Part shown: positions 1 through 59,405 of the stretch, one piece after another
Numbering within the stretch: the stretch's first letter is position 1
Layout: the number at the start of each line of letters is the position of its first letter
Origin: Escherichia coli
Lineage (GTDB): Bacteria; Pseudomonadota; Gammaproteobacteria; Enterobacterales; Enterobacteriaceae
Assembly: GCF_003334405.1 (NCBI RefSeq)
Contig: NZ_QOWM01000002.1
Direction: 5' to 3' (one strand)
Length of the DNA stretch: 64,000 bases
Notes under the pieces: model-generated
The model's input: the letters and a program-made list of their open reading frames with translations, nothing else
The model's database searches: none
What the model was told of the DNA's origin: nothing
Translations under genes and position numbers: made by a program

Positions 1-318
1 CGATTGCATATTGCGGTCGCTGACTAAAACAATCCCCATGTCAGTACTTGCAAGATAGTCAATCCAGTCTTTTTCAAGGAATAGACGTAAAAAACTTACT
101 GAAAAATCGACAAAAATATATCCGCTTAATCTCGCATTGTGGTTTTTTGTTAAGATACCTTCTACCACACCACGATTAAAATATGAACTTTCTTCGGGCC
201 ACATACAAAAACACGAGTTTGCGCAATACTGCAAACGCGGTGACTCTTCTGGCATTATTTGGCAATGCATTGAGCAACTATTGCATGTAAGACTTTTATA
301 ACGACTACAAAGCCCCAT
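1..318 (-). CDS. yqeH: Uncharacterized protein YqeH, N-terminal part (gene runs off the window start)
   Basis: Minus-strand ATG at 318-316 with GGAGG 6-10 nt upstream; frame stays open to position 1 (translation MGLCSRYKSLTCNSCSMHCQIMPEE...). Not in the ORF track because no stop lies in the window. Position after yqeG matches K-12 gene order. Confidence 0.55.
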   Translation of the reverse strand, partial: MGLCSRYKSLTCNSCSMHCQIMPEESPRLQYCANSCFCMWPEESSYFNRGVVEGILTKNHNARLSGYIFVDFSVSFLRLFLEKDWIDYLASTDMGIVLVSDRNMQS

Positions 319-777
319 GTTAAGAACCTCCCTATCCGTATATAATTGCATAATTTCATTGGTTATTGATGATGTCAATACACCATGATTTTGTAATTTT
401 GCCGGGAAAAATTGCGATTAATCTGTATTTGCTATAATTCTGAGTAAGGCATTTAAAAATGCATTTCTCGTTATCAAATATGATTATGTTTCACTGATTT
501 AATCTTGCATGGTTGAGAGCGGTCCAGATAACTATCTCATGGTATAAGAATATCTATATCGCAAATTGTTTTTGAATGACCAGAAGATATCTTGCGAATC
601 TAAGTTATGCATCTTAAATAGTCTTATTTAAGATGTTCAGATCTCTTTGTGTGTTTAACTAACTGATAATACTAGGATATGACGAGAGAAGTGATAGAGT
701 GGAATAATAACAAATGAATATTATGAAAAATGGAATGGTTCAAAATTGTAGCAATTTTGAACCATCCACAACTGATA

Positions 778-2007
778 TTAGCTAAAGAACATTACCGATA
801 CGCACAGGATACCCACGATCAGCGTAATCAGATTTCCGATGGAACGCCAGGGTTTAAGCGCCGGGATGAGATACGTTGACAGCGTAGGCATGATGAAAAG
901 TATCATGGCAATGAGCGGGCCGCTGATCGCGTAAATCATCGAAATCGCGTTCGGGTTAATGCAACAAACAATGAAGGTAATCAGCGATACCAACATAATT
1001 GATAGTGCGCGGTTAAATGCACGACTTTTCTTTACACCAACCTGCTGTAGTGTTGTTTTGACGACCTCTGTGGCACCTTCAATAACGCCAAAGTACGTAC
1101 CCAGGAATGATTTCGACATCGCAACTACTGCGACAATAATCCCGGAAATTGACAACCATGCTGGGGCGTTCGGCAGCATAGAAAGCGCCGATAAAATGGT
1201 GACCCCTTCTTCTTTAGCAGCTTCAATATACGAAGGTGGAATAGAAAGCAGGCAGCTAAAGACAAAGAACAGTACACTTATGCAGATGATGAGATAAGCG
1301 ACTTTCATAATTTTTTTGCATTTATCCATAGCGTGTTCGCCATATTTTTCACGTCTGTCTATGGCAAACGTAGAAATAATGGGCGTATGGCTAAAGGCGA
1401 AAACCATCACGGGAATCGATATCCATATCTGGTGAAGGGTATTCTGATTGAACTCTACCTGGGTTGTTAATAGATCAGGTTGCCAACTACCGACAAGGTA
1501 AATGGAAAGAAATAAGAAATAGGCAATCAATGGGAATACCAAAAATCCCATTACCCGAATAGTGGCATGACGTCCCATCAGAAAAATGAGATTCAGAATT
1601 AATACAACACCCAGACTCACCAACATACGGATGCGAAGATCAATAACCATATGCTTTGCCAGCTGTTCCGTAAGTGAGTTGGTAATTGCCACTGCATATA
1701 TCAACACGACGACAAAAAAGGCGATGAAGTACAGCGTGGTAATCAGATTACCAATCTTCTTGCTATAGTAGTGTGTTACCGCGCCCGTTATCCCTTCACC
1801 TGCTGATGTTTTTGATGAGAGGATGAACTGGCACAAGGCTTTATGTGGCCAATATGTTAAAGGCCAGGCGACCAGAGCAGTAATAAACAGGACCACAGCC
1901 CCTGCCGAACCTAACTGAATAGGAAGGAAGAGCGTGCCTGCACCAACGGCTGTGCCGTAGAGCGCGAAACTCCACAGAGTTTCTTCTTTAGACCAAATAT
2001 TAGACAT
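778..2007 (-). CDS. yqeG: Putative amino-acid transporter, HAAAP family (SdaC/TdcC-like)
   Basis: 409-aa ORF, polytopic hydrophobic profile, clear homology to SdaC encoded in this window (58116-59405); lower GC than neighbours. Confidence 0.85.
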   Translation of the reverse strand: MSNIWSKEETLWSFALYGTAVGAGTLFLPIQLGSAGAVVLFITALVAWPLTYWPHKALCQFILSSKTSAGEGITGAVTHYYSKKIGNLITTLYFIAFFVVVLIYAVAITNSLTEQLAKHMVIDLRIRMLVSLGVVLILNLIFLMGRHATIRVMGFLVFPLIAYFLFLSIYLVGSWQPDLLTTQVEFNQNTLHQIWISIPVMVFAFSHTPIISTFAIDRREKYGEHAMDKCKKIMKVAYLIICISVLFFVFSCLLSIPPSYIEAAKEEGVTILSALSMLPNAPAWLSISGIIVAVVAMSKSFLGTYFGVIEGATEVVKTTLQQVGVKKSRAFNRALSIMLVSLITFIVCCINPNAISMIYAISGPLIAMILFIMPTLSTYLIPALKPWRSIGNLITLIVGILCVSVMFFS

Positions 2008-2261
2008 TATCTGAACGTATCATCTACAAATTAAACAAAATGGAGGGCAATTTACCATAAACCAGGTTAAGTATGGGAGATTAACGCCCTATCTACCCCT
2101 CTATTGGTGGGTTAGTGGTTGCAAACCTTACGTGCCAGTTATGTCTCTGACTGCTGCTCAGGCATATTTCCTTTGTGATAAAAATCACTTTTTTTAAACA
2201 ATTAAGATAACTGTAATTAACAATCATTTACTATTGCACTGTTAATTGGTGCGAGGTTGTG

Positions 2262-3443
2262 ATGAAAGACGTTGTGATTGTCGGGGCGTTACGGACACCT
2301 ATCGGCTGCTTTCGTGGTGCGTTAGCGGGTCATTCCGCCGTGGAACTTGGTAGTCTGGTCGTGAAAGCGTTAATAGAACGTACCGGCGTTCCTGCATATG
2401 CGGTGGATGAAGTAATTCTTGGTCAGGTGTTGACTGCAGGGGCAGGGCAGAATCCGGCAAGGCAATCGGCTATTAAAGGTGGTCTGCCTAATAGCGTTTC
2501 TGCAATCACTATTAATGACGTTTGCGGTTCCGGGCTTAAAGCACTGCATCTGGCTACTCAGGCGATACAGTGTGGCGAGGCTGATATTGTCATCGCCGGT
2601 GGCCAGGAAAACATGAGCCGCGCACCACATGTTCTGACTGATAGCCGCACCGGTGCACAGCTTGGCAATAGCCAGTTGGTTGACAGTCTTGTGCATGATG
2701 GGTTGTGGGATGCCTTCAATGATTATCATATTGGTGTCACCGCCGAAAATCTGGCTCGCGAATATGGCATCAGCCGTCAGTTGCAGGATGCTTACGCACT
2801 TAGCTCGCAACAAAAAGCGCGAGCGGCGATTGACGCCGGACGATTTAAAGATGAGATCGTCCCGGTAATGACCCAAAGTAACGGGCAGACGTTGGTTGTT
2901 GATACCGATGAACAGCCACGCACTGACGCCAGCGCAGAAGGCTTAGCCCGTTTAAATCCTTCATTTGATAGTCTCGGTTCTGTGACAGCGGGTAATGCAT
3001 CATCCATAAACGATGGCGCAGCTGCGGTAATGATGATGAGCGAAGCCAAAGCACGAGCGTTGAATTTACCCGTGCTGGCCCGCATTCGCGCATTTGCCAG
3101 CGTTGGTGTAGATCCGGCATTGATGGGAATTGCGCCGGTGTATGCGACCCGCCGTTGCCTGGAGCGTGTAGGCTGGCAGTTGGCTGAAGTCGATCTTATC
3201 GAGGCTAATGAAGCGTTTGCTGCACAGGCGCTTTCGGTTGGCAAGATGCTTGAGTGGGATGAGCGTCGGGTCAATGTCAATGGTGGCGCGATCGCACTCG
3301 GTCACCCGATAGGCGCTTCCGGTTGCCGAATCCTGGTTTCTCTGGTTCATGAAATGGTGAAACGTAATGCCCGCAAAGGACTGGCAACGCTTTGTATCGG
3401 CGGGGGCCAGGGTGTGGCATTGACCATTGAACGTGACGAATAG
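2262..3443 (+). CDS. yqeF: Acetyl-CoA C-acetyltransferase (thiolase family)
   Basis: 393 aa from ATG 2262 (track ORF starts 1 codon earlier at GTG); thiolase motifs NDVCGSGLKA (active Cys) and C-terminal CIGGGQG. Confidence 0.9.
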   Translation: MKDVVIVGALRTPIGCFRGALAGHSAVELGSLVVKALIERTGVPAYAVDEVILGQVLTAGAGQNPARQSAIKGGLPNSVSAITINDVCGSGLKALHLATQAIQCGEADIVIAGGQENMSRAPHVLTDSRTGAQLGNSQLVDSLVHDGLWDAFNDYHIGVTAENLAREYGISRQLQDAYALSSQQKARAAIDAGRFKDEIVPVMTQSNGQTLVVDTDEQPRTDASAEGLARLNPSFDSLGSVTAGNASSINDGAAAVMMMSEAKARALNLPVLARIRAFASVGVDPALMGIAPVYATRRCLERVGWQLAEVDLIEANEAFAAQALSVGKMLEWDERRVNVNGGAIALGHPIGASGCRILVSLVHEMVKRNARKGLATLCIGGGQGVALTIERDE

Positions 3444-3600
3444 CTCTGCATTTCCTCCTTACCGATAAATATCTGCCGTCATTAATCTGTTGAATAATGA
3501 TGGCTGGCAAGTCGACATACATTTTCTGGGCTCCCTCATTTTTCCATTCTCATGACATATTCGTGATCGACACTGCACTTTTTTTAATCCTTAACTTAAA

Positions 3601-3686
3601 AATGAAACATTGTTTTATTTTTAATTGAAAACCCTAGCCCATGGGCATATCATCCCTTTATAGAGAAAACGAAACAGTGTTTCACT
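3601..3686. promoter_or_regulatory. Two KdgR-type operator palindromes upstream of kduI (AATGAAACATTGTTTTATT at 3601-3619; AAACGAAACAGTGTTTCACT at 3667-3686)
   Basis: Near-perfect inverted repeats built on GAAACA..TGTTTC half-sites, 50-130 bp upstream of the kduI start; matches the known KdgR operator type for pectin/hexuronate genes. Confidence 0.55.
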
Positions 3687-3729
3687 ATCGTTTTCTATTT
3701 TCACGCTTTACTGATTATCGGAGGTTGAT

Positions 3730-4566
3730 GTGGACGTAAGACAGAGCATCCACAGTGCGCACGCAAAAACGCTGGATACCCAAGGGCTGCGCAATGAATT
3801 TTTGGTTGAAAAGGTATTTGTCGCCGATGAGTACACCATGGTTTACAGCCACATTGACCGAATTATTGTTGGCGGCATTATGCCGATAACTAAAACGGTT
3901 TCCGTTGGCGGGGAAGTTGGTAAACAACTCGGCGTAAGCTATTTCCTTGAACGTCGCGAGTTAGGTGTTATCAATATTGGCGGTGCCGGTACGATTACTG
4001 TCGATGGCCAATGCTATGAAATCGGTCACCGCGACGCCCTGTATGTTGGTAAAGGTGCAAAAGAAGTTGTCTTTGCCAGTATTGATACCGGCACTCCGGC
4101 GAAGTTTTATTACAATTGCGCACCCGCGCATACGACGTATCCCACCAAAAAAGTCACACCGGACGAAGTATCTCCAGTCACGTTAGGCGATAACCTCACC
4201 AGTAACCGTCGCACGATTAACAAATATTTTGTCCCGGATGTACTGGAAACCTGCCAATTGAGTATGGGGCTGACGGAGCTGGCTCCGGGTAACTTGTGGA
4301 ACACCATGCCGTGTCACACCCACGAGCGCCGGATGGAAGTTTATTTCTATTTCAATATGGATGATGACGCCTGCGTTTTCCACATGATGGGGCAGCCGCA
4401 AGAAACGCGTCATATTGTGATGCATAACGAGCAGGCGGTGATCTCCCCGAGCTGGTCGATCCATTCCGGTGTCGGAACCAAAGCTTATACCTTTATCTGG
4501 GGCATGGTCGGTGAAAACCAGGTCTTTGATGATATGGACCATGTGGCCGTTAAAGATTTGCGCTAG
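3730..4566 (+). CDS. kduI: 4-deoxy-L-threo-5-hexosulose-uronate ketol-isomerase (5-keto-4-deoxyuronate isomerase)
   Basis: 278 aa, GTG start 3730 preceded by GGAGG; full-length match to KduI cupin family. Confidence 0.93.
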
Positions 4567-4595
4567 TTGTGGGCATAAACGAATAAGGTATTGTT

Positions 4596-5357
4596 ATGAT
4601 TTTAAGTGCATTTTCTCTCGAAGGTAAAGTTGCGGTCGTCACTGGTTGTGATACTGGACTGGGTCAGGGGATGGCGTTGGGGCTGGCGCAAGCGGGCTGT
4701 GACATTGTTGGCATTAACATCGTTGAACCGACTGAAACCATCGAGCAGGTCACAGCGCTGGGGCGTCGTTTTTTAAGCCTGACCGCCGATCTGCGAAAGA
4801 TTGATGGTATTCCAGCACTGCTGGATCGCGCGGTAGCGGAGTTTGGTCATATTGATATCCTGGTGAATAACGCCGGATTGATTCGCCGCGAAGATGCTCT
4901 CGAGTTCAGCGAAAAGGACTGGGACGATGTCATGAACCTGAATATCAAGAGCGTATTCTTCATGTCTCAGGCAGCGGCGAAACACTTTATCGCGCAAGGC
5001 AATGGCGGCAAGATTATCAATATCGCGTCAATGCTCTCCTTCCAGGGCGGGATCCGTGTGCCTTCTTATACCGCATCAAAAAGCGGCGTGATGGGTGTGA
5101 CGCGATTGATGGCGAACGAATGGGCTAAACACAACATTAATGTTAATGCGATAGCCCCGGGTTACATGGCGACCAACAATACTCAACAACTACGGGCAGA
5201 TGAACAACGTAGCGCGGAAATTCTCGACCGCATTCCAGCTGGTCGTTGGGGACTGCCGAGTGACCTGATGGGGCCGATAGTGTTCCTTGCCTCCAGCGCT
5301 TCAGATTATGTGAATGGTTATACCATTGCCGTGGATGGCGGTTGGCTGGCGCGTTAA
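4596..5357 (+). CDS. kduD: 2-dehydro-3-deoxy-D-gluconate 5-dehydrogenase (SDR family)
   Basis: 253 aa, Rossmann motif TGCDTGLGQG, SDR catalytic YxxxK (YTASK); 29 bp after kduI, so likely co-transcribed. Confidence 0.93.
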   Translation: MILSAFSLEGKVAVVTGCDTGLGQGMALGLAQAGCDIVGINIVEPTETIEQVTALGRRFLSLTADLRKIDGIPALLDRAVAEFGHIDILVNNAGLIRREDALEFSEKDWDDVMNLNIKSVFFMSQAAAKHFIAQGNGGKIINIASMLSFQGGIRVPSYTASKSGVMGVTRLMANEWAKHNINVNAIAPGYMATNNTQQLRADEQRSAEILDRIPAGRWGLPSDLMGPIVFLASSASDYVNGYTIAVDGGWLAR

Positions 5358-5379
5358 TTCATTCTTCTTACTTTTATGA

Positions 5380-5404
5380 CCCTGCCGCATGGCAGGGTTT
5401 TTTA
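5380..5404 (+). terminator. Rho-independent terminator after kduD
   Basis: Stem CCCTGCC/GGCAGGG with loop GCAT followed by a 7-T run. Confidence 0.7.
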
Positions 5405-5671
5405 TACCTGTAGATCATCATAATCCATATCATGGTTATGAAATAATCCATATTAATTATCAATTAATGAACTTTATGAATTTTATCTGCTGTAAAATTA
5501 GGTGGTTAATAATAATCTCAATAATTCAACTTAATTTGAAAATTGGAATATCCATCACATAACGACATGTCGCAGCAATTTAATCCATATTTATGCTGTT
5601 TCCGACCTGACACCTGCGTGAGTTGTTCACGTATTTTTTCACTATGTCTTACTCTCTGCTGGCAGGAAAAA

Positions 5672-7090
5672 ATGGTTACTATCAATACGGAATCTGCTTT
5701 AACGCCACGTTCTTTGCGGGATACGCGGCGTATGAATATGTTTGTTTCGGTAGCTGCTGCGGTCGCAGGATTGTTATTTGGTCTTGATATCGGCGTAATC
5801 GCCGGAGCGTTGCCGTTCATTACCGATCACTTTGTGCTGACCAGTCGTTTGCAGGAATGGGTGGTTAGTAGCATGATGCTCGGTGCAGCAATTGGTGCGC
5901 TGTTTAATGGTTGGCTGTCGTTCCGCCTGGGGCGTAAATACAGCCTGATGGCGGGGGCCATCCTGTTTGTACTCGGTTCTATAGGGTCCGCTTTTGCGAC
6001 CAGCGTAGAGATGTTAATCGCCGCTCGTGTGGTGCTGGGCATTGCTGTCGGGATCGCGTCTTACACCGCTCCTCTGTATCTTTCTGAAATGGCAAGTGAA
6101 AACGTTCGCGGTAAGATGATCAGTATGTACCAGTTGATGGTCACACTCGGCATCGTGCTGGCGTTTTTATCCGATACAGCGTTCAGTTATAGCGGTAACT
6201 GGCGCGCAATGTTGGGGGTTCTTGCTTTACCAGCAGTTCTGCTGATTATTCTGGTAGTCTTCCTGCCAAATAGCCCGCGCTGGCTGGCGGAAAAGGGGCG
6301 TCATATTGAGGCGGAAGAAGTATTGCGTATGCTGCGCGATACGTCGGAAAAAGCGCGAGAAGAACTCAACGAAATTCGTGAAAGCCTGAAGTTAAAACAG
6401 GGCGGTTGGGCACTGTTTAAGATCAACCGTAACGTCCGTCGTGCTGTGTTTCTCGGTATGTTGTTGCAGGCGATGCAGCAGTTTACCGGTATGAACATCA
6501 TCATGTACTACGCGCCGCGTATCTTCAAAATGGCGGGCTTTACGACCACAGAACAACAGATGATTGCGACTCTGGTCGTAGGGCTGACCTTTATGTTCGC
6601 CACCTTTATTGCGGTGTTTACGGTAGATAAAGCAGGGCGTAAACCGGCTCTGAAAATTGGTTTCAGCGTGATGGCGTTAGGCACTCTGGTGCTGGGCTAT
6701 TGCCTGATGCAGTTTGATAACGGTACGGCTTCCAGTGGCTTGTCCTGGCTCTCTGTTGGCATGACGATGATGTGTATTGCCGGTTATGCGATGAGCGCCG
6801 CGCCAGTGGTGTGGATCCTGTGCTCTGAAATTCAGCCGCTGAAATGCCGCGATTTCGGTATTACCTGTTCGACCACCACGAACTGGGTGTCGAATATGAT
6901 TATCGGCGCGACCTTCCTGACACTGCTTGATAGCATTGGCGCTGCCGGTACGTTCTGGCTCTACACTGCGCTGAACATTGCGTTTGTGGGCATTACTTTC
7001 TGGCTCATTCCGGAAACCAAAAATGTCACGCTGGAACATATCGAACGCAAACTGATGGCAGGCGAGAAGTTGAGAAATATCGGCGTCTGA
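5672..7090 (+). CDS. araE: Arabinose:H+ symporter (MFS sugar porter)
   Basis: 472 aa from ATG 5672 ([13 protein letters not shown]...); the track ORF starts 43 codons upstream at TTG 5543, which I take as spurious. MFS sugar-transporter signature. Confidence 0.93.
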
Positions 7091-11818: not shown

Positions 11819-15185
<3,367 letters not shown>

Positions 15186-16364: not shown

Positions 16365-16583
16365 TTAACGTTCAATAATTTGCGAAACATCATCACGGTT
16401 AATTTGCATCGCGTTACCTTGCTGATCGTGATAACTCACCAGCCCGGTATCATCATCAATTTCAGGTTTTCCATCGGTCAAAATCATACGGCCATCTTTG
16501 GTCGCCATGACGTAATCACTGGAACACCCGGAAACAGCAAACGCCAGTCCGACTGCAGAAATTATTACTGCCCATTTTTTCAT
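16365..16583 (-). CDS. ygdR: DUF903-family lipoprotein
   Basis: 72 aa; signal peptide plus lipobox (VSGC); paralog of YgdI at 44489-44716. Confidence 0.88.
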
Positions 16584-17502: not shown

Positions 17503-18192
17503 CTACTGGATCAGAAAATGACGGGCCAGTAGTGCACTGGTGAAATTCTTCTTCAAATAAAAGCCGCGTGGCAGCGTCAGAATCCGTTCGCCCCGGGCAC
17601 CAATGGCTTCGGTAAGCGCTTTCGCATTCGCTGCTTTCGGTCGTATCTGTAAATACTCCCCGTGACGAGCGGTAATCCGCTCAACCTGACCGAGAACAAT
17701 CATATCCATTAATTCTTCCCAGTCTTCGCGTAGCTGCCGGTCTTCCTCTTCATTCGGGCTCCACAGCAACGGTGATCCAACGCGACGCTGCGCCAGCGGG
17801 ATGCTGCGCTCGCCTTCAACCGGTATCCACAGTACGCGTTTGAGTTTGTGGCGCACGTGGCTGGTTTCCCAGGTCACCCCGCTATTGCCCGTTAACGGGG
17901 CAACACAAACGAATGTTGTTTCCAGCGGACGACCAAGACTATCCACAGGGATAGTTTTAAGTTCCACGCCCAGAGCAGCAAAATCTTGCTCAGGTTTACT
18001 CCCTGCGCTGGCACCTAGCCAGATCTCCAGTAACACGCCAATCCAGCCTTTATCGCGTTTTAAATTCTCTGGCGTAACCAGCCCGACAAGTGCCGCCAGT
18101 TCTCCCAATGTATAACCAGAAAGTTGCTGTGCTTGCGCTAACAACTGTTCTTCAGTTTCGGGAGGAGAGAGCAGTGGGCGAGGTTGGGACAT
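17503..18192 (-). CDS. mutH: DNA mismatch-repair endonuclease MutH
   Basis: 229 aa; full-length match to MutH. Confidence 0.95.
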
Positions 18193-18377
18193 GTCATGAT
18201 ACCTTGATTAAAAAACAAACAGCAATTATGTGCCGAATATTCGCAGTGTAACTTTTTCCACATGCGTTGTTCAATTCTCTGATTTATATTGCTTTTTAGG
18301 TTGCCGGTAATCGAGTTGCGCAACACTGCAACGGGTTTTCCAAATCTGGTCACTGAAAATAAACAGGATCTTACACC

Positions 18378-18524
18378 ATGTTATCCACAGAAAGCTGGGA
18401 TAACTGTGAAAAACCTCCACTACTGTTTCCATTTACAGCCTTGACGTGCGACGAAACTCCAGTTTTTAGTGGTTCAGTGCTTAACTTAGTGGCACATTCT
18501 GTGGATAAATACGGCATTGGTTGA
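18378..18524 (+). CDS. ygdT: Small hypothetical ORF (48 aa), possibly ygdT; lies inside the DnaA-box region
   Basis: ATG 18378 to TGA 18522-18524 (MLSTESWDNCEKPPLL...); no convincing RBS; a consensus DnaA box sits at each end, so coding status is doubtful. Confidence 0.3.
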   Translation: MLSTESWDNCEKPPLLFPFTALTCDETPVFSGSVLNLVAHSVDKYGIG

Positions 18525-18751
18525 TCTTTCGCCAACCCGTAAATGAGAGGTGTGACCTGGGTCACGAATTACTCTTTTTCATTACTAAAATTACATGTAA
18601 TGCATTGACTGATAATGAATATTTTAAAATGTCTATATCGGGCTTATTCAGAATGCTCCGGGTTTTCCCGTAGTAATTCCGTAGTTCTTCACAACTCTAT
18701 CCACAGAAAAGGTGAATAAAAACGGCTATCCACCCCTTCCTCTGTTTATAA
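18381..18751. promoter_or_regulatory. DARS2-like DnaA-reactivating region: cluster of DnaA boxes in the mutH-rppH gap
   Basis: Perfect TTATCCACA at 18381-18389 (+) and TGTGGATAA at 18500-18508 (-); CTATCCACA at 18697-18705, CTATCCACC at 18726-18734 and TGTTTATAA at 18743-18751 are near-consensus. DARS2 is reported in the mutH-ygdP(rppH) intergenic region. Confidence 0.6.
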
Positions 18752-18876
18752 CTCTGCACATAACTGTGAGTTATTCAATTGTTATTAGTGTGTAATGCCC
18801 TGCAGAGAGTGGTTTACCGTCTTCCTGGAGTATGAAACAATCATTCGTATATAAAGCTTTATTTTGAGGTAGTCCG

Positions 18877-58115: not shown

Positions 58116-59405
58116 TTAGCTGAACAGAGAGTAGAAGATTGCGGAGATTGCAATCAGACCCATCACGACAACGAATACGTTGCTGATGTGACCGCTGTAC
58201 TTACGCATTGCCGGTACTTTCTGAATTGCGTACATCGGCATCAGGAACAGGATCATCGCGATGATTGGACCGCCCAGGGTTTCAATCATACCCAGGATGC
58301 TCGGGTTCAGGGTGGCAACAATCCAGGTCGTTACCAGCATGAACAGCGCAGTGATACGGTTCAGCTTGTTGATTTCGATAGACTTACCTTTACCACGCAG
58401 AGATTTAATCACCATACCGTTGAAGCCTTCACGTGCGCCCAGGTAGTGACCGAGGAAGGATTTGGTGATAGCGATAATCGCGATAATCGGAGCCATCCAC
58501 GCGATAACCGGTGCGTTAAAGTGGTTAGCCAGGTAAGACAGAATCGAGATGTTCTGCTCTTTAGCCGCAGCCAGGTCTGCCGGAGTCAGGCTCAGTACAC
58601 AGCTGAAGACGAAGAACATTACGGTCAGCACCATCATGATGTGTGCGAATGCCAGGATCTTCGAGCATTTCTGTTCTGCCATATCGCCGTACTCTTCACG
58701 CTTCGCAACGGCGAAAGAAGAGATGATCGGAGAGTGGTTGAACGAGAACACCATTACCGGAATTGCCAGCCACAGGGTCATCCACAGACCGTTTCCGGTT
58801 GCAGATGCAGTGTCCAGAGACAGCGTTTCCAGTGCAGCGCCGTTCCACTGCGGGATCAGGTACAGAGCCAGCAGCATCAGTACGCCAACAAACGGGAATA
58901 CCAGAATACTCATCGCTTTAACGATCATCTGCTCACCGAAGCGAACGATGGTCATCATACCCACGATCAGGATCAGCGACAGAATCGCACGCGGCGGTGG
59001 CGTCATACCCAGCTGGTGAGACATGAAGCTTTCAACGGTATTGGTGATTGCCACGCTATAAACCAGCAGGATCGGGTAGATAGCGAAGAAGTAGAGCAGG
59101 GTAATCAGTTTACCTGCGCCAATACCAAAGTGTTCTTCTACAACCTCGGTGATGTCTTCGCCCGGGTTTTTACCAGACAGTACGAAGCGAGTCAGGCCGC
59201 GGTGAGCAAAAAACGTCATCGGGAACGCAAGGATAGCCATGATGATCAGCGGGATCATACCGCCAACACCGGCGTTGATTGGCAGGAACAGCACGCCCGC
59301 GCCGATTGCCGTGCCGTAAAGGCCCAGCATCCACATGGTGTCTGTCTTGCGCCAGGCACTACGAGAGTCTTTCGACGCAATCGTGCTGGTTTGAGTCGTT
59401 TCCAT
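58116..59405 (-). CDS. sdaC: Serine:H+ symporter (HAAAP family)
   Basis: 429 aa; polytopic; upstream of sdaB in the same orientation. Confidence 0.95.

What the first reader, a model, noticed from the sequence alone, without database searches (positions are those of the whole stretch)
1..2260. AT-rich segment at the window edge (yqeH/yqeG and their spacers) contrasts with the GC-normal core
The yqeH-yqeG spacer (319-777) and yqeG-yqeF spacer (2008-2261) are markedly AT-rich, with long A/T runs, and yqeG itself looks lower in GC than downstream genes. yqeG is a second HAAAP transporter paralogous to sdaC. This fits the window starting at the border of a horizontally acquired region (the ETT2-type island begins next to yqeH in K-12) and suggests H-NS-silenced DNA.
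Basis: partly seen in the sequence, partly recalled or inferred. Interest (0 to 1): 0.3.

Follow-up and report, generated by a model that had tools for sequence, protein, structure and literature searches.

The report
ETT2 island edge beside ancestral yqeG
The AT-rich stretch at the window's start is three ordinary things side by side: the known edge of E. coli's foreign, H-NS-silenced ETT2 island (ending about position 604), an old vertically inherited membrane-transporter gene whose protein composition lowers its GC, and a normal AT-rich promoter spacer.

Summary
Positions 1-2260 are 39.9% GC against 51.5% for the rest of the window, with GC change points at 794 and 2247, and all gene and spacer coordinates are correct. 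The segment is a composite, not one acquired block.

(1) Positions 1 to ~604 (5' part of yqeH plus its upstream DNA) are the end of the known ETT2 island. yqeH has atypical codon usage, about 24% of complete E. coli genomes lack this DNA, and in those glyU joins the window at ~604-607. Published data show H-NS/StpA silencing of yqeH.

(2) yqeG (44.4% GC) is not island DNA. It is in 5,420 of 5,426 genomes, including ETT2-less ones, and is syntenic with yqeF-kduID-araE across Enterobacteriaceae. Its GC3 and codon bias are ordinary. About two-thirds of its GC deficit is due to amino-acid composition, a trait its paralog SdaC shares.

(3) The yqeG-yqeF spacer (36.6% GC) ranks 8th of 33 spacers, and its A/T runs are not unusually long.

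Verdict: already known biology, reader partly right, low interest. Minor extras are heterogeneous ETT2 deletion breakpoints, a conserved palindrome at 610-635, and an AceR-like/PACE gene pair that other genera carry in the second spacer.

The parts
1..318 (-). 5' 318 nt (first 106 codons) of yqeH, a LuxR-type HTH regulator and the first gene of the ETT2 island (ECs3703).
   Evidence: 100% match to annotated yqeH. GC 0.387, GC3 0.349, codon bias z = +3.9, synonymous GC residual z = -4.9. Listed as ECs3703 in PMC3977695.
319..604 (-). yqeH upstream (promoter) region, the island-side part of the yqeH-yqeG spacer. It is lost together with ETT2 in ETT2-less genomes.
   Evidence: GC 0.318. Window 1-600 is found in 4,116 of 5,426 genomes, against 5,420 for yqeG-yqeF. 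A sigma-70-like site TTGACA-17-AATTAT lies at 378-350 on the - strand. RpoS/RpoH/RpoE holoenzyme SELEX peaks are reported in this spacer (PMC5493296).
581..596 (.). CAGAAGATATCTTGCG, the sequence reported as a HusR (YnfL) genomic-SELEX site in the yqeG/yqeH spacer.
   Evidence: PMC12844172 lists CGCAAGATATCTTCTG for the yqeG>yqeH spacer. Its reverse complement is read directly at window 581-596.
604..607 (.). Most common junction of ETT2-less E. coli, where the glyU flank joins the window sequence here.
   Evidence: Matches in E2348/69-type genomes start at query 604 or 607. The alignment shows the switch from glyU flank to window sequence. Rarer breakpoints lie at about 536, 578, 591 and 810, and at about 557 in Escherichia sp. 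MOD1-EC7003.
610..635 (.). Perfect 11-bp inverted repeat CATCTTAAATA-gtct-TATTTAAGATG, conserved within Escherichia. Function unknown.
   Evidence: Unique in the window, with 0 expected by chance. Conserved in E. coli, Escherichia sp. MOD1 and E. albertii while the flanks diverge, and absent from other genera. Hairpin energy is -10 to -11.5 kcal/mol, z about -4.2.
605..777 (-). 3' flank of yqeG that is retained in essentially all E. coli (core side of the spacer).
   Evidence: Retained in ETT2-less genomes at 94-95% identity. GC 0.289.
733..767 (-). Predicted intrinsic terminator of yqeG: a hairpin followed by a U-run.
   Evidence: Terminator scan gives 16 pairs, a loop of 3 and the tail CATTTTTCAT. 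A 14-nt perfect inverted repeat is present. Folding energy is -20.9 kcal/mol, z = -6.2. The outer 10-bp stem is conserved in E. albertii.
778..2007 (-). yqeG, a 409-aa HAAAP-type (SdaC/TdcC-like) amino-acid permease. It is ancestral and vertically inherited.
   Evidence: Matches TIGR00814 at E = 1.6e-153 and shares 38% identity with SdaC. Present in 5,420 of 5,426 genomes. Orthologs of 73-98% identity are syntenic with yqeF-kduID-araE in about 70 Enterobacteriaceae species. The GC deficit lies in codon positions 1 and 2.
2008..2261 (.). Divergent yqeG/yqeF promoter spacer. The ends (2008-2061 and 2166-2261) are homologous across genera. The middle (2062-2165) occupies the place where most genera carry an AceR-like LysR regulator plus a PACE efflux transporter.
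   Evidence: GC 0.366, rank 8 of 33 spacers. blastn finds homology for the two ends only. The gap is about 1.64-1.72 kb in 55 of 70 loci and about 210-390 bp in 13. NCBIfam identifies AceR-like and PACE proteins.
2262..3443 (+). yqeF, acetyl-CoA C-acetyltransferase, the first GC-normal gene.
   Evidence: Annotation and 100% match. GC 0.536. A GC change point falls at 2247.

Best explanation
The low-GC segment 1-2260 is a juxtaposition of three unrelated causes.

(i) Positions 1 to about 604 are the yqeG-proximal end of the ETT2 type III secretion island: yqeH and its promoter region. This is foreign DNA of about 36% GC that lies between tRNA-Gly(CCC) glyU and yqeG. It was acquired before E. 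coli and E. albertii split, was later eroded or deleted in many lineages, and is silenced by H-NS/StpA.

(ii) Positions 605-2007 are ancestral Enterobacteriaceae DNA: the yqeG terminator region and yqeG itself. The gene's GC is low mainly because its protein is rich in Ile, Leu, Phe and similar residues, like its paralog SdaC. A further small part comes from weak, low-expression codon usage. It is not recently acquired.

(iii) Positions 2008-2261 are an ordinary AT-rich divergent promoter spacer. In Escherichia it also marks the site where a two-gene AceR-like/PACE module present in most related genera is missing.

Status of the steps. Shown here: coordinates, composition, codon statistics, population presence/absence, junctions, synteny, and GC tracking across hosts. 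Taken from the literature: H-NS/StpA silencing of yqeH and ETT2, and the timing of acquisition. Inferred: terminator function, and that ETT2-less states are deletions.
For: - Locus identity and upstream ETT2 remnant up to glyU.
- E2348/69 has glyU, then 315 bp, then yqeG, with a YqeG protein (WP_000065950.1) identical to the K-12-like one. Junction alignment.
- Population counts: yqeG-yqeF in 5,420 of 5,426 genomes; window 1-600 in 4,116; full spacer in 4,048; junctions at 604/607 in the remainder.
- yqeH and the other ETT2 genes have GC 0.32-0.43, GC3 0.26-0.41 and high codon bias. yqeG has GC3 z = -1.4 and bias z = +0.4.
- Decomposition of yqeG GC: expected from amino-acid sequence 0.472 (window mean 0.528; SdaC 0.485), synonymous residual -0.027 (z = -1.5). 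For yqeH the residual is -0.084 (z = -4.9).
- In 72 loci from other genera the yqeG ortholog is 3-9 GC points below yqeF/kduD/araE (mean -5.8), while its GC3 difference averages +0.01 and GC3 ranges 0.46-0.84 with the host.
- Synteny yqeG-(aceR-like/PACE)-yqeF-kduI-kduD-araE across the family.
- Spacer ranks.
- The AT-rich domain of 31-36% GC runs from about 8 kb upstream to about window 800.
- Literature: ETT2 spans ECs3703 (yqeH) to ECs3737, is 36.9% GC and lies next to glyU (PMC3977695; PMC11068852). It was acquired before the E. albertii/E. coli split (PMC4700944). H-NS represses ygeH and ETT2 (PMC4210603). yqeH log2FC is +1.9 in hns, +5.1 in hns stpA and +5.2 with netropsin, and it is flagged HTG and CHIN-overlapping (PMC12460168).
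Against: - In Escherichia and Salmonella, yqeG GC3 is still 4-11 points below its neighbours. A small synonymous AT excess is therefore not explained by amino-acid composition. It is, however, within the range of yqeF, gcvA and fucP.
- No direct H-NS occupancy or expression data for yqeG could be read. The CHIN-forming fragment cloned by Gavrilov et al. (2,985,045-2,996,445) includes yqeG, so the silenced domain may extend over it.
- The original insertion edge of ETT2 is not marked by a tRNA-derived direct repeat. It is bounded only by deletion breakpoints at 536-607.
- The direction of the AceR-like/PACE indel (loss in Escherichia or gain elsewhere) was not resolved.
Confidence: 0.85

Rival explanations
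1. One reading: the whole of 1-2260, including yqeG and both spacers, is the margin of the horizontally acquired ETT2-type region.
For: There is a continuous GC deficit from position 1 to 2247. yqeG has the lowest GC of any gene in the window. Some papers loosely count yqeF and yqeG 'in ETT2' (PMC11068852). The CHIN fragment used for H-NS reconstitution includes yqeG.
Against: yqeG and yqeF are retained in ETT2-less genomes directly next to glyU and occur in 5,420 of 5,426 genomes. Orthologs are syntenic across about 70 Enterobacteriaceae species that lack ETT2. yqeG codon bias and GC3 are ordinary, and its GC3 tracks each host. The second spacer is not unusual.
Confidence: 0.04
2. yqeG is a very old acquisition from an AT-rich donor, predating the Enterobacteriaceae radiation. 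It has ameliorated at third codon positions but keeps an AT-biased amino-acid composition at positions 1 and 2.
For: GC1 of 0.456 is the lowest in the window. GC1 and GC2 stay low (0.44-0.54 and 0.39-0.46) in all hosts while GC3 equilibrates. That is the pattern expected from amelioration, which acts fastest at position 3 (established model of Lawrence and Ochman, from my own knowledge).
Against: The paralog SdaC, an undisputed core gene, has nearly the same composition: GC expected from its amino acids is 0.485 and its FYMINK fraction 0.336, against 0.323 for YqeG. Low GC1/GC2 therefore looks like a family or membrane-protein trait. No donor signal, mobility gene or synteny break is seen.
Confidence: 0.08
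3. The AT-richness of yqeG and its two spacers is functionally maintained, because the ETT2 H-NS/StpA filament (CHID) spreads over yqeG to the yqeG-yqeF spacer. On this view the ancestral transporter is co-silenced with the island.
For: The CHIN-forming fragment starts at 2,985,045, inside yqeF, and covers yqeG. yqeG shows a phenotype only in multicopy and no deletion phenotype (PMC12003319). An H-NS SELEX site is reported even in the kduI-yqeF spacer (PMC3946193). GC steps only gradually from 0.34 to 0.43 to 0.50.
Against: yqeG is equally low in GC relative to its neighbours in genera without ETT2, so the island is not needed to explain the composition. yqeG is absent from the stored part of the hns RNA-seq table, which is sorted by hns p-value and ends at p = 0.0015, whereas yqeH has p = 8e-9. 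A strong terminator and a GC change point at 794 separate yqeG from the island.
Confidence: 0.2

Closest known systems
[quoted passage not shown]
   Same: Window 1 to about 604 is its yqeG-proximal end. It has the same position (between glyU and yqeG), the same first gene (yqeH = ECs3703), the same low GC (36.4% for the K-12-like remnant against the published 36.9%), strain-variable presence, and H-NS/StpA silencing.
   Different: Nothing new in kind. This analysis only refines the comparative border to about 536-607 in the yqeH-yqeG spacer, and shows that no tRNA-derived direct repeat marks this edge.
HAAAP family serine/threonine permeases (SdaC, TdcC; TIGR00814 'stp')
   Same: YqeG aligns end to end with the model and shares 38% identity with SdaC encoded in the same window. 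It has similar length and a hydrophobic, AT-codon-rich composition.
   Different: Its score of 511.5 bits is just below the curated subfamily cut-off of 525.8. Its substrate is unknown: it is a weak multicopy suppressor of threonine-uptake deficiency, with no measurable uptake (PMC12003319). It lacks SdaC's strong codon bias.
Xenogeneic silencing domains (H-NS/StpA CHIN/CHID structures on AT-rich horizontally transferred genes)
   Same: yqeH and the rest of ETT2 are flagged HTG and CHIN-overlapping, and are derepressed in hns stpA mutants and by netropsin. A sharp GC step is proposed as the domain boundary (PMC12460168).
   Different: Whether the domain ends at the island edge or covers the ancestral yqeG was not determinable from the data held.

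Membership tests
ETT2 genomic island (applied to window 1-604: yqeH and its upstream region) | Located between tRNA glyU and yqeG on the chromosome. | tested here: met
   The K-12-like locus shows glyU, ygeQ ... yqeI, yqeH, then yqeG.
ETT2 genomic island (applied to window 1-604) | Low GC (about 37%) and atypical codon usage relative to the E. coli core. | tested here: met
   yqeH has GC 0.37-0.39, GC3 0.33-0.35, codon bias z = +3.9 and synonymous residual z = -4.9. The remnant is 0.364 GC.
ETT2 genomic island (applied to window 1-604) | Strain-variable presence with conserved flanks. | tested here: met
   Window 1-600 is in 4,116 of 5,426 genomes while the flanks are in 5,420. In ETT2-less genomes glyU joins the window at 604-607.
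ETT2 genomic island (applied to window 1-604) | Silenced by H-NS. | not testable with these tools
   Literature only: yqeH log2FC is +5.1 in hns stpA (PMC12460168), and H-NS represses ygeH and ETT2 (PMC4210603).
ETT2 genomic island (applied to yqeG, 778-2007, and the spacer 2008-2261) | Absent when the island is absent; restricted to the Escherichia lineage that acquired ETT2. | tested here: not met
   yqeG is retained with an identical protein in E2348/69, which lacks ETT2. It is in 5,420 of 5,426 genomes. Orthologs are syntenic in Salmonella, Citrobacter, Enterobacter, Klebsiella, Kluyvera and others.
ETT2 genomic island (applied to yqeG) | Atypical synonymous codon usage and GC3. | tested here: not met
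   GC3 z = -1.4, Karlin B z = +0.4, synonymous residual z = -1.5. GC3 tracks the host across 72 loci.
tRNA-integrated island with att-type borders | Direct repeat of the tRNA 3' end at the distal border, plus an integrase gene. | tested here: not met
   No match to the glyU 3' end within 3 mismatches anywhere in the window. No flanking direct repeat spans the K-12-like remnant. No integrase is annotated there.
HAAAP transporter family (YqeG) | Full-length homology to SdaC/TdcC-type permeases. | tested here: met
   TIGR00814 at E = 1.6e-153 covers residues 5-401 against model positions 1-397, at 511.5 bits, slightly under the curated cut-off of 525.8. Identity to SdaC is 38% (E = 6e-97). Pfam gives only a weak Aa_trans hit.
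HAAAP transporter family (YqeG) | Amino-acid transport activity. | not testable with these tools
   In the literature it is a multicopy suppressor of threonine-uptake deficiency, but no uptake was measurable (PMC12003319).

The most novel reading that the evidence does not exclude
The ancestral core gene yqeG is pulled into the H-NS/StpA-silenced chromosomal hairpin domain nucleated by the neighbouring ETT2 island, so that island carriage changes expression of a conserved transporter. The Escherichia-specific perfect palindrome at 610-635, which lies 3-6 bp from the commonest ETT2 deletion junction, would then act as a protein-binding boundary or operator, or as a recombination-prone site.
Probability: 0.12. 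Interest if true: 0.35.

Novelty: already known. Interest (0 to 1): 0.1.

Why it matters
It matters little beyond annotation hygiene. The case is a clean worked example that a low-GC gene beside a genomic island need not belong to it. Total GC misleads for hydrophobic membrane proteins. GC3, codon bias, presence/absence across strains and synteny across genera separate true island DNA (yqeH) from an ancestral neighbour (yqeG). It also places the comparative ETT2 border inside the yqeH-yqeG spacer, which is useful for anyone delimiting the H-NS-silenced domain or engineering ETT2 deletions.

Tried and rejected
- Rfam scan of 1-6000 at a permissive threshold found only a sub-threshold CRISPR-DR8 chance hit inside yqeF. 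There is no RNA family in either spacer.
- The sigma-70 promoter scan found fewer sites than in shuffles (5 against 7.3), so it is uninformative.
- A search for a tRNA-derived att repeat at the island edge, and for flanking direct repeats, found nothing. Only chance-level short repeats occur within 1-2700.
- I tried to read yqeG expression and CHIN/CHID coordinates from the PMC12460168 supplements. The stored file is truncated at an hns p-value of 0.0015 and Tables 5-6 are not held. Only a weak inference was possible.
- Ren et al. 2004 (PMC415751), the primary ETT2 distribution paper, is not held.
- Pfam did not recognise YqeG as Trp_Tyr_perm and gave only a weak Aa_trans hit. NCBIfam and the pairwise comparison settled family assignment instead.
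- I considered that the ETT2-less junction is an ancestral empty site. I rejected this because breakpoints differ between lineages (about 536, 557, 578, 591, 604 and 607) and because ETT2 predates the E. coli/E. albertii split (PMC4700944).
- CAI against highly expressed genes was not computed, because the window holds no ribosomal-protein reference set. Karlin codon bias against the window's own genes and an amino-acid/synonymous GC decomposition were used instead.
Full report
**What is there.** The window is a K-12-like E. coli chromosome segment read opposite to the K-12 map. Megablast of 1-4000 matches 5,420 of 5,426 complete E. coli genomes, and the features under the match are annotated yqeH, yqeG, yqeF and kduI. 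Mapping the annotated genes of a 99.9%-identical genome onto the window gives:
- yqeH, 5' 318 nt only, at 1-318 (-)
- yqeG at 778-2007 (-)
- yqeF at 2262-3443 (+)
- then kduI, kduD, araE and so on, with sdaC at 58116-59405 (-)

The spacer claims are weaker once a proper null is used. Among the 33 spacers of at least 40 bp, yqeH-yqeG (0.307) is the most AT-rich, but kduD-araE (0.325), lysR-lysA (0.339) and fucP-fucA (0.357) are close behind. yqeG-yqeF (0.366) ranks only 8th. The longest A or T homopolymers (5 and 7 nt) and AT-only runs (10 nt) are no longer than in other spacers, which reach 8 and 14 nt. What does stand out is tract length. Positions 1 to about 863 form the longest AT-rich tract in the window even though the window edge truncates it.

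**Where the island ends.** In a K-12-like genome the 11 kb upstream of window position 1 holds yqeI, yqeJ, yqeK, ygeG, ygeH (HilA-like), ygeI, T3SS pseudogenes (OrgA/MxiK), an IS2 and ygeQ, followed by tRNA-Gly(CCC) glyU, actS and xdhABC. That is the degenerate ETT2 island, at 31-36% GC per kb.

In E2348/69 glyU lies 315 bp from the yqeG stop codon and everything from ygeQ to yqeH is absent. Its YqeG protein is identical (WP_000065950.1) to the K-12-like one. The three-way alignment shows E2348/69 following the glyU flank and then switching to window sequence at about 605.

Across the collection:
- window 1-600 is present in 4,116 of 5,426 genomes
- the complete spacer is present in 4,048
- nearly all the others start matching at window 604 or 607, at 94-95% identity
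- rare genomes have other breakpoints, at about 536, 578, 591 and 810
- an ETT2-less Escherichia sp. (MOD1-EC7003) joins at about 557

These different breakpoints, together with the published conclusion that ETT2 entered before the E. coli/E. albertii split (PMC4700944), indicate that ETT2-less states are secondary deletions. No tRNA-derived direct repeat or integrase marks this edge. The original insertion boundary can therefore only be bounded, between yqeH and about 536-607. The literature defines ETT2 as ECs3703 (yqeH) to ECs3737, 29.9 kb, 36.9% GC, adjacent to glyU (PMC3977695; PMC11068852).

**yqeH versus yqeG.** yqeH behaves like the other ETT2 genes. Its GC3 is 0.33-0.35, its Karlin codon bias relative to the window's genes has z = +3.9, and its synonymous GC residual is -0.084 (z = -4.9).

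yqeG does not. Its GC3 is 0.490 (z = -1.4; yqeF 0.485, gcvA 0.467 and ygeA 0.476 are similar) and its codon bias has z = +0.4. I decomposed GC into the value expected from the amino-acid sequence under the window's average synonymous usage, plus a synonymous residual. For yqeG the expected value is 0.472 against a window mean of 0.528 (z = -2.6), and the residual is -0.027 (z = -1.5, the same as yqeF, gcvA and fucP). About two-thirds of the deficit is therefore amino-acid composition. The paralog SdaC has nearly the same expected GC (0.485) and the same FYMINK-rich, GARP-poor composition, but masks it with strongly biased codons.

**Comparative test.** A scan of one genome per species found 358 relatives. 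The best 80 loci carry YqeG orthologs of 73-98% identity in Escherichia, Salmonella enterica subsp. arizonae and diarizonae, Citrobacter, Enterobacter, Klebsiella, Raoultella, Kluyvera, Leclercia, Lelliottia, Cedecea and others. In almost all of them yqeG lies divergent to yqeF-kduI-kduD-araE(-ygeA-lysR).

In 72 loci the ortholog's total GC is always 3-9 points below that of yqeF, kduD and araE (mean -5.8). Its GC3 ranges from 0.46 to 0.84 with the host and differs from the neighbours by +0.01 on average. A gene whose third positions sit at equilibrium with each host, and whose low GC1 and GC2 are constant across hosts, is an old vertically inherited gene with a compositionally biased protein. 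It is not island cargo. A residual GC3 shortfall of 4-11 points in Escherichia and Salmonella remains. It is small and shared with other weakly expressed genes.

**The 3' flank of yqeG (605-777).** This very AT-rich stretch (0.289) is on the core side of the junction. It contains a strong predicted intrinsic terminator at 733-767 on the yqeG strand: a 14-nt perfect inverted repeat, -20.9 kcal/mol, z = -6.2, followed by a U-run. Its outer stem is conserved in E. albertii. It also contains a perfect 11-bp palindrome at 610-635 (CATCTTAAATA-gtct-TATTTAAGATG). The palindrome is unique in the window, conserved within Escherichia where the flanks diverge, and absent from other genera. It lies 3-6 bp from the commonest deletion junction. 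Its function is unknown.

Published genomic SELEX places RpoS, RpoH and RpoE holoenzyme peaks and a HusR (YnfL) site in this spacer. The HusR sequence CGCAAGATATCTTCTG corresponds to window 581-596 (PMC5493296; PMC12844172).

**The yqeG-yqeF spacer.** Compositionally it is an ordinary divergent promoter region. Comparatively it is also an indel site. In 55 of 70 loci the interval is about 1.64-1.72 kb and encodes an AceR-like LysR regulator and a PACE-family efflux transporter (NCBIfam NF052373 and NF033665). In 13 loci, including all Escherichia, it is about 210-390 bp. The E. coli spacer keeps homology at both ends (window 2166-2261 and 2008-2061, 78-85% identity to Salmonella and Citrobacter) but not in the middle.

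**H-NS.** H-NS binds and represses ygeH, and through it ETT2 (PMC4210603). In MG1655 yqeH rises by log2 1.9 in an hns mutant, 5.1 in an hns stpA double mutant and 5.2 with netropsin, and it is flagged as a horizontally transferred, CHIN-overlapping gene (PMC12460168).

For yqeG I found no direct data. The CHIN-forming fragment cloned in that study spans 2,985,045-2,996,445 and therefore includes yqeG. On the other hand, yqeG is absent from the stored part of the expression table, which is sorted by hns p-value and ends at 0.0015. That suggests a weaker response in the hns single mutant than yqeH shows. H-NS SELEX sites also occur outside the island, for example in the kduI-yqeF spacer (PMC3946193), so AT-rich promoter spacers binding H-NS is not evidence of foreign origin.

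**YqeG function.** YqeG is a full-length HAAAP-type permease. It matches TIGR00814 at E = 1.6e-153, slightly below the curated cut-off, and shares 38% identity with SdaC. Experimentally it is a weak multicopy suppressor of threonine-uptake deficiency with no measurable uptake and no deletion phenotype (PMC12003319).

**Verdict.** The finding is a correct description of a compositional contrast whose causes are already known or ordinary. The causes are the edge of ETT2 (to about 604), an ancestral transporter gene with a low-GC protein composition, and a normal promoter spacer. Novelty: already known. Interest: low.

Noticed in passing
window 610-635: A perfect 11-bp inverted repeat, CATCTTAAATA-gtct-TATTTAAGATG. 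It is conserved in E. coli, Escherichia sp. MOD1-EC7003 and E. albertii while the flanks diverge, and is absent downstream of yqeG in other genera. It lies 3-6 bp from the commonest ETT2 deletion junction. It could be an operator or a recombination-prone site.
   Followed up: partly
window 2062-2165; L007 8437-9300 (-) and 9380-9859 (+): Most Enterobacteriaceae (55 of 70 loci) carry an AceR-like LysR regulator and a PACE-family efflux transporter between yqeF and yqeG. Escherichia and a few scattered genera have only a 210-390 bp spacer, with homology retained at both ends. The direction of the indel is unresolved.
   Followed up: partly
window 536-607 (junctions); L002 11860-12174; L004 11231-11516: ETT2-less genomes have different right-hand breakpoints: about 536, 557, 578, 591, 604 and 607. 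This implies several independent deletions of the island, not one ancestral empty site.
   Followed up: partly
L004-L083, interval between yqeG stop and glyU: The yqeG-glyU interval varies from 0.3 to 8.8 kb across genera, and its GC is often host-like. In S. diarizonae the DNA downstream of yqeG carries rcnR/rcnA-like genes, an AraC-type regulator and a 921-aa autotransporter (L007 11261-17214). The site looks like a general hot spot for variable DNA, not only for ETT2.
   Followed up: partly
window 581-596: CAGAAGATATCTTGCG, with a palindromic core AAGATATCTT, equals the HusR (YnfL) genomic-SELEX sequence reported for the yqeG/yqeH spacer (PMC12844172). It is on the island side of the common junction.
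   Followed up: partly
window 18184-18874 (mutH-ygdT-rppH) and 16365-16583 (ygdR): A second AT-rich tract of about 700 bp surrounds the tiny gene ygdT (GC3 0.35). ygdR also has low GC3 (0.38) and a strongly negative synonymous GC residual. Both are compositionally as odd as yqeH, but the genes are very short.
   Followed up: no
window 58116-59405 (sdaC): sdaC has the strongest codon bias of the long genes in the window (Karlin B 0.563, GC3 0.665, synonymous residual +0.040). This masks an amino-acid composition as AT-favouring as that of YqeG.
   Followed up: partly
hits H1, H4, H31, H43 (E. coli genomes) and L002 16956-18329: IS elements (IS3 family, IS903B, IS1) interrupt yqeG or the yqeH/yqeG region in some strains. 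E2348/69 has ISEc13 between kduD and araE.
   Followed up: no
L067 (CACSKA010000005.1) and L073: A record titled 'Chryseobacterium sp. 18061' carries a typical Enterobacteriaceae lysR-ygeA-kduD-kduI-yqeF-yqeG locus. It closely resembles L073 ('Citrobacter sp. 18056') and the Pluralibacter-type loci, so it is probably a mislabelled or contaminated assembly.
   Followed up: no
L008-L012 (Citrobacter sedlakii / C. amalonaticus), about 13100-13740: YqeH homologues of 78-79% identity lie about 1.9 kb downstream of yqeG in some Citrobacter species, with a YqeI-like protein (49%) further on in C. sedlakii. This suggests ETT2-related regulators or islands at the same site outside Escherichia.
   Followed up: no
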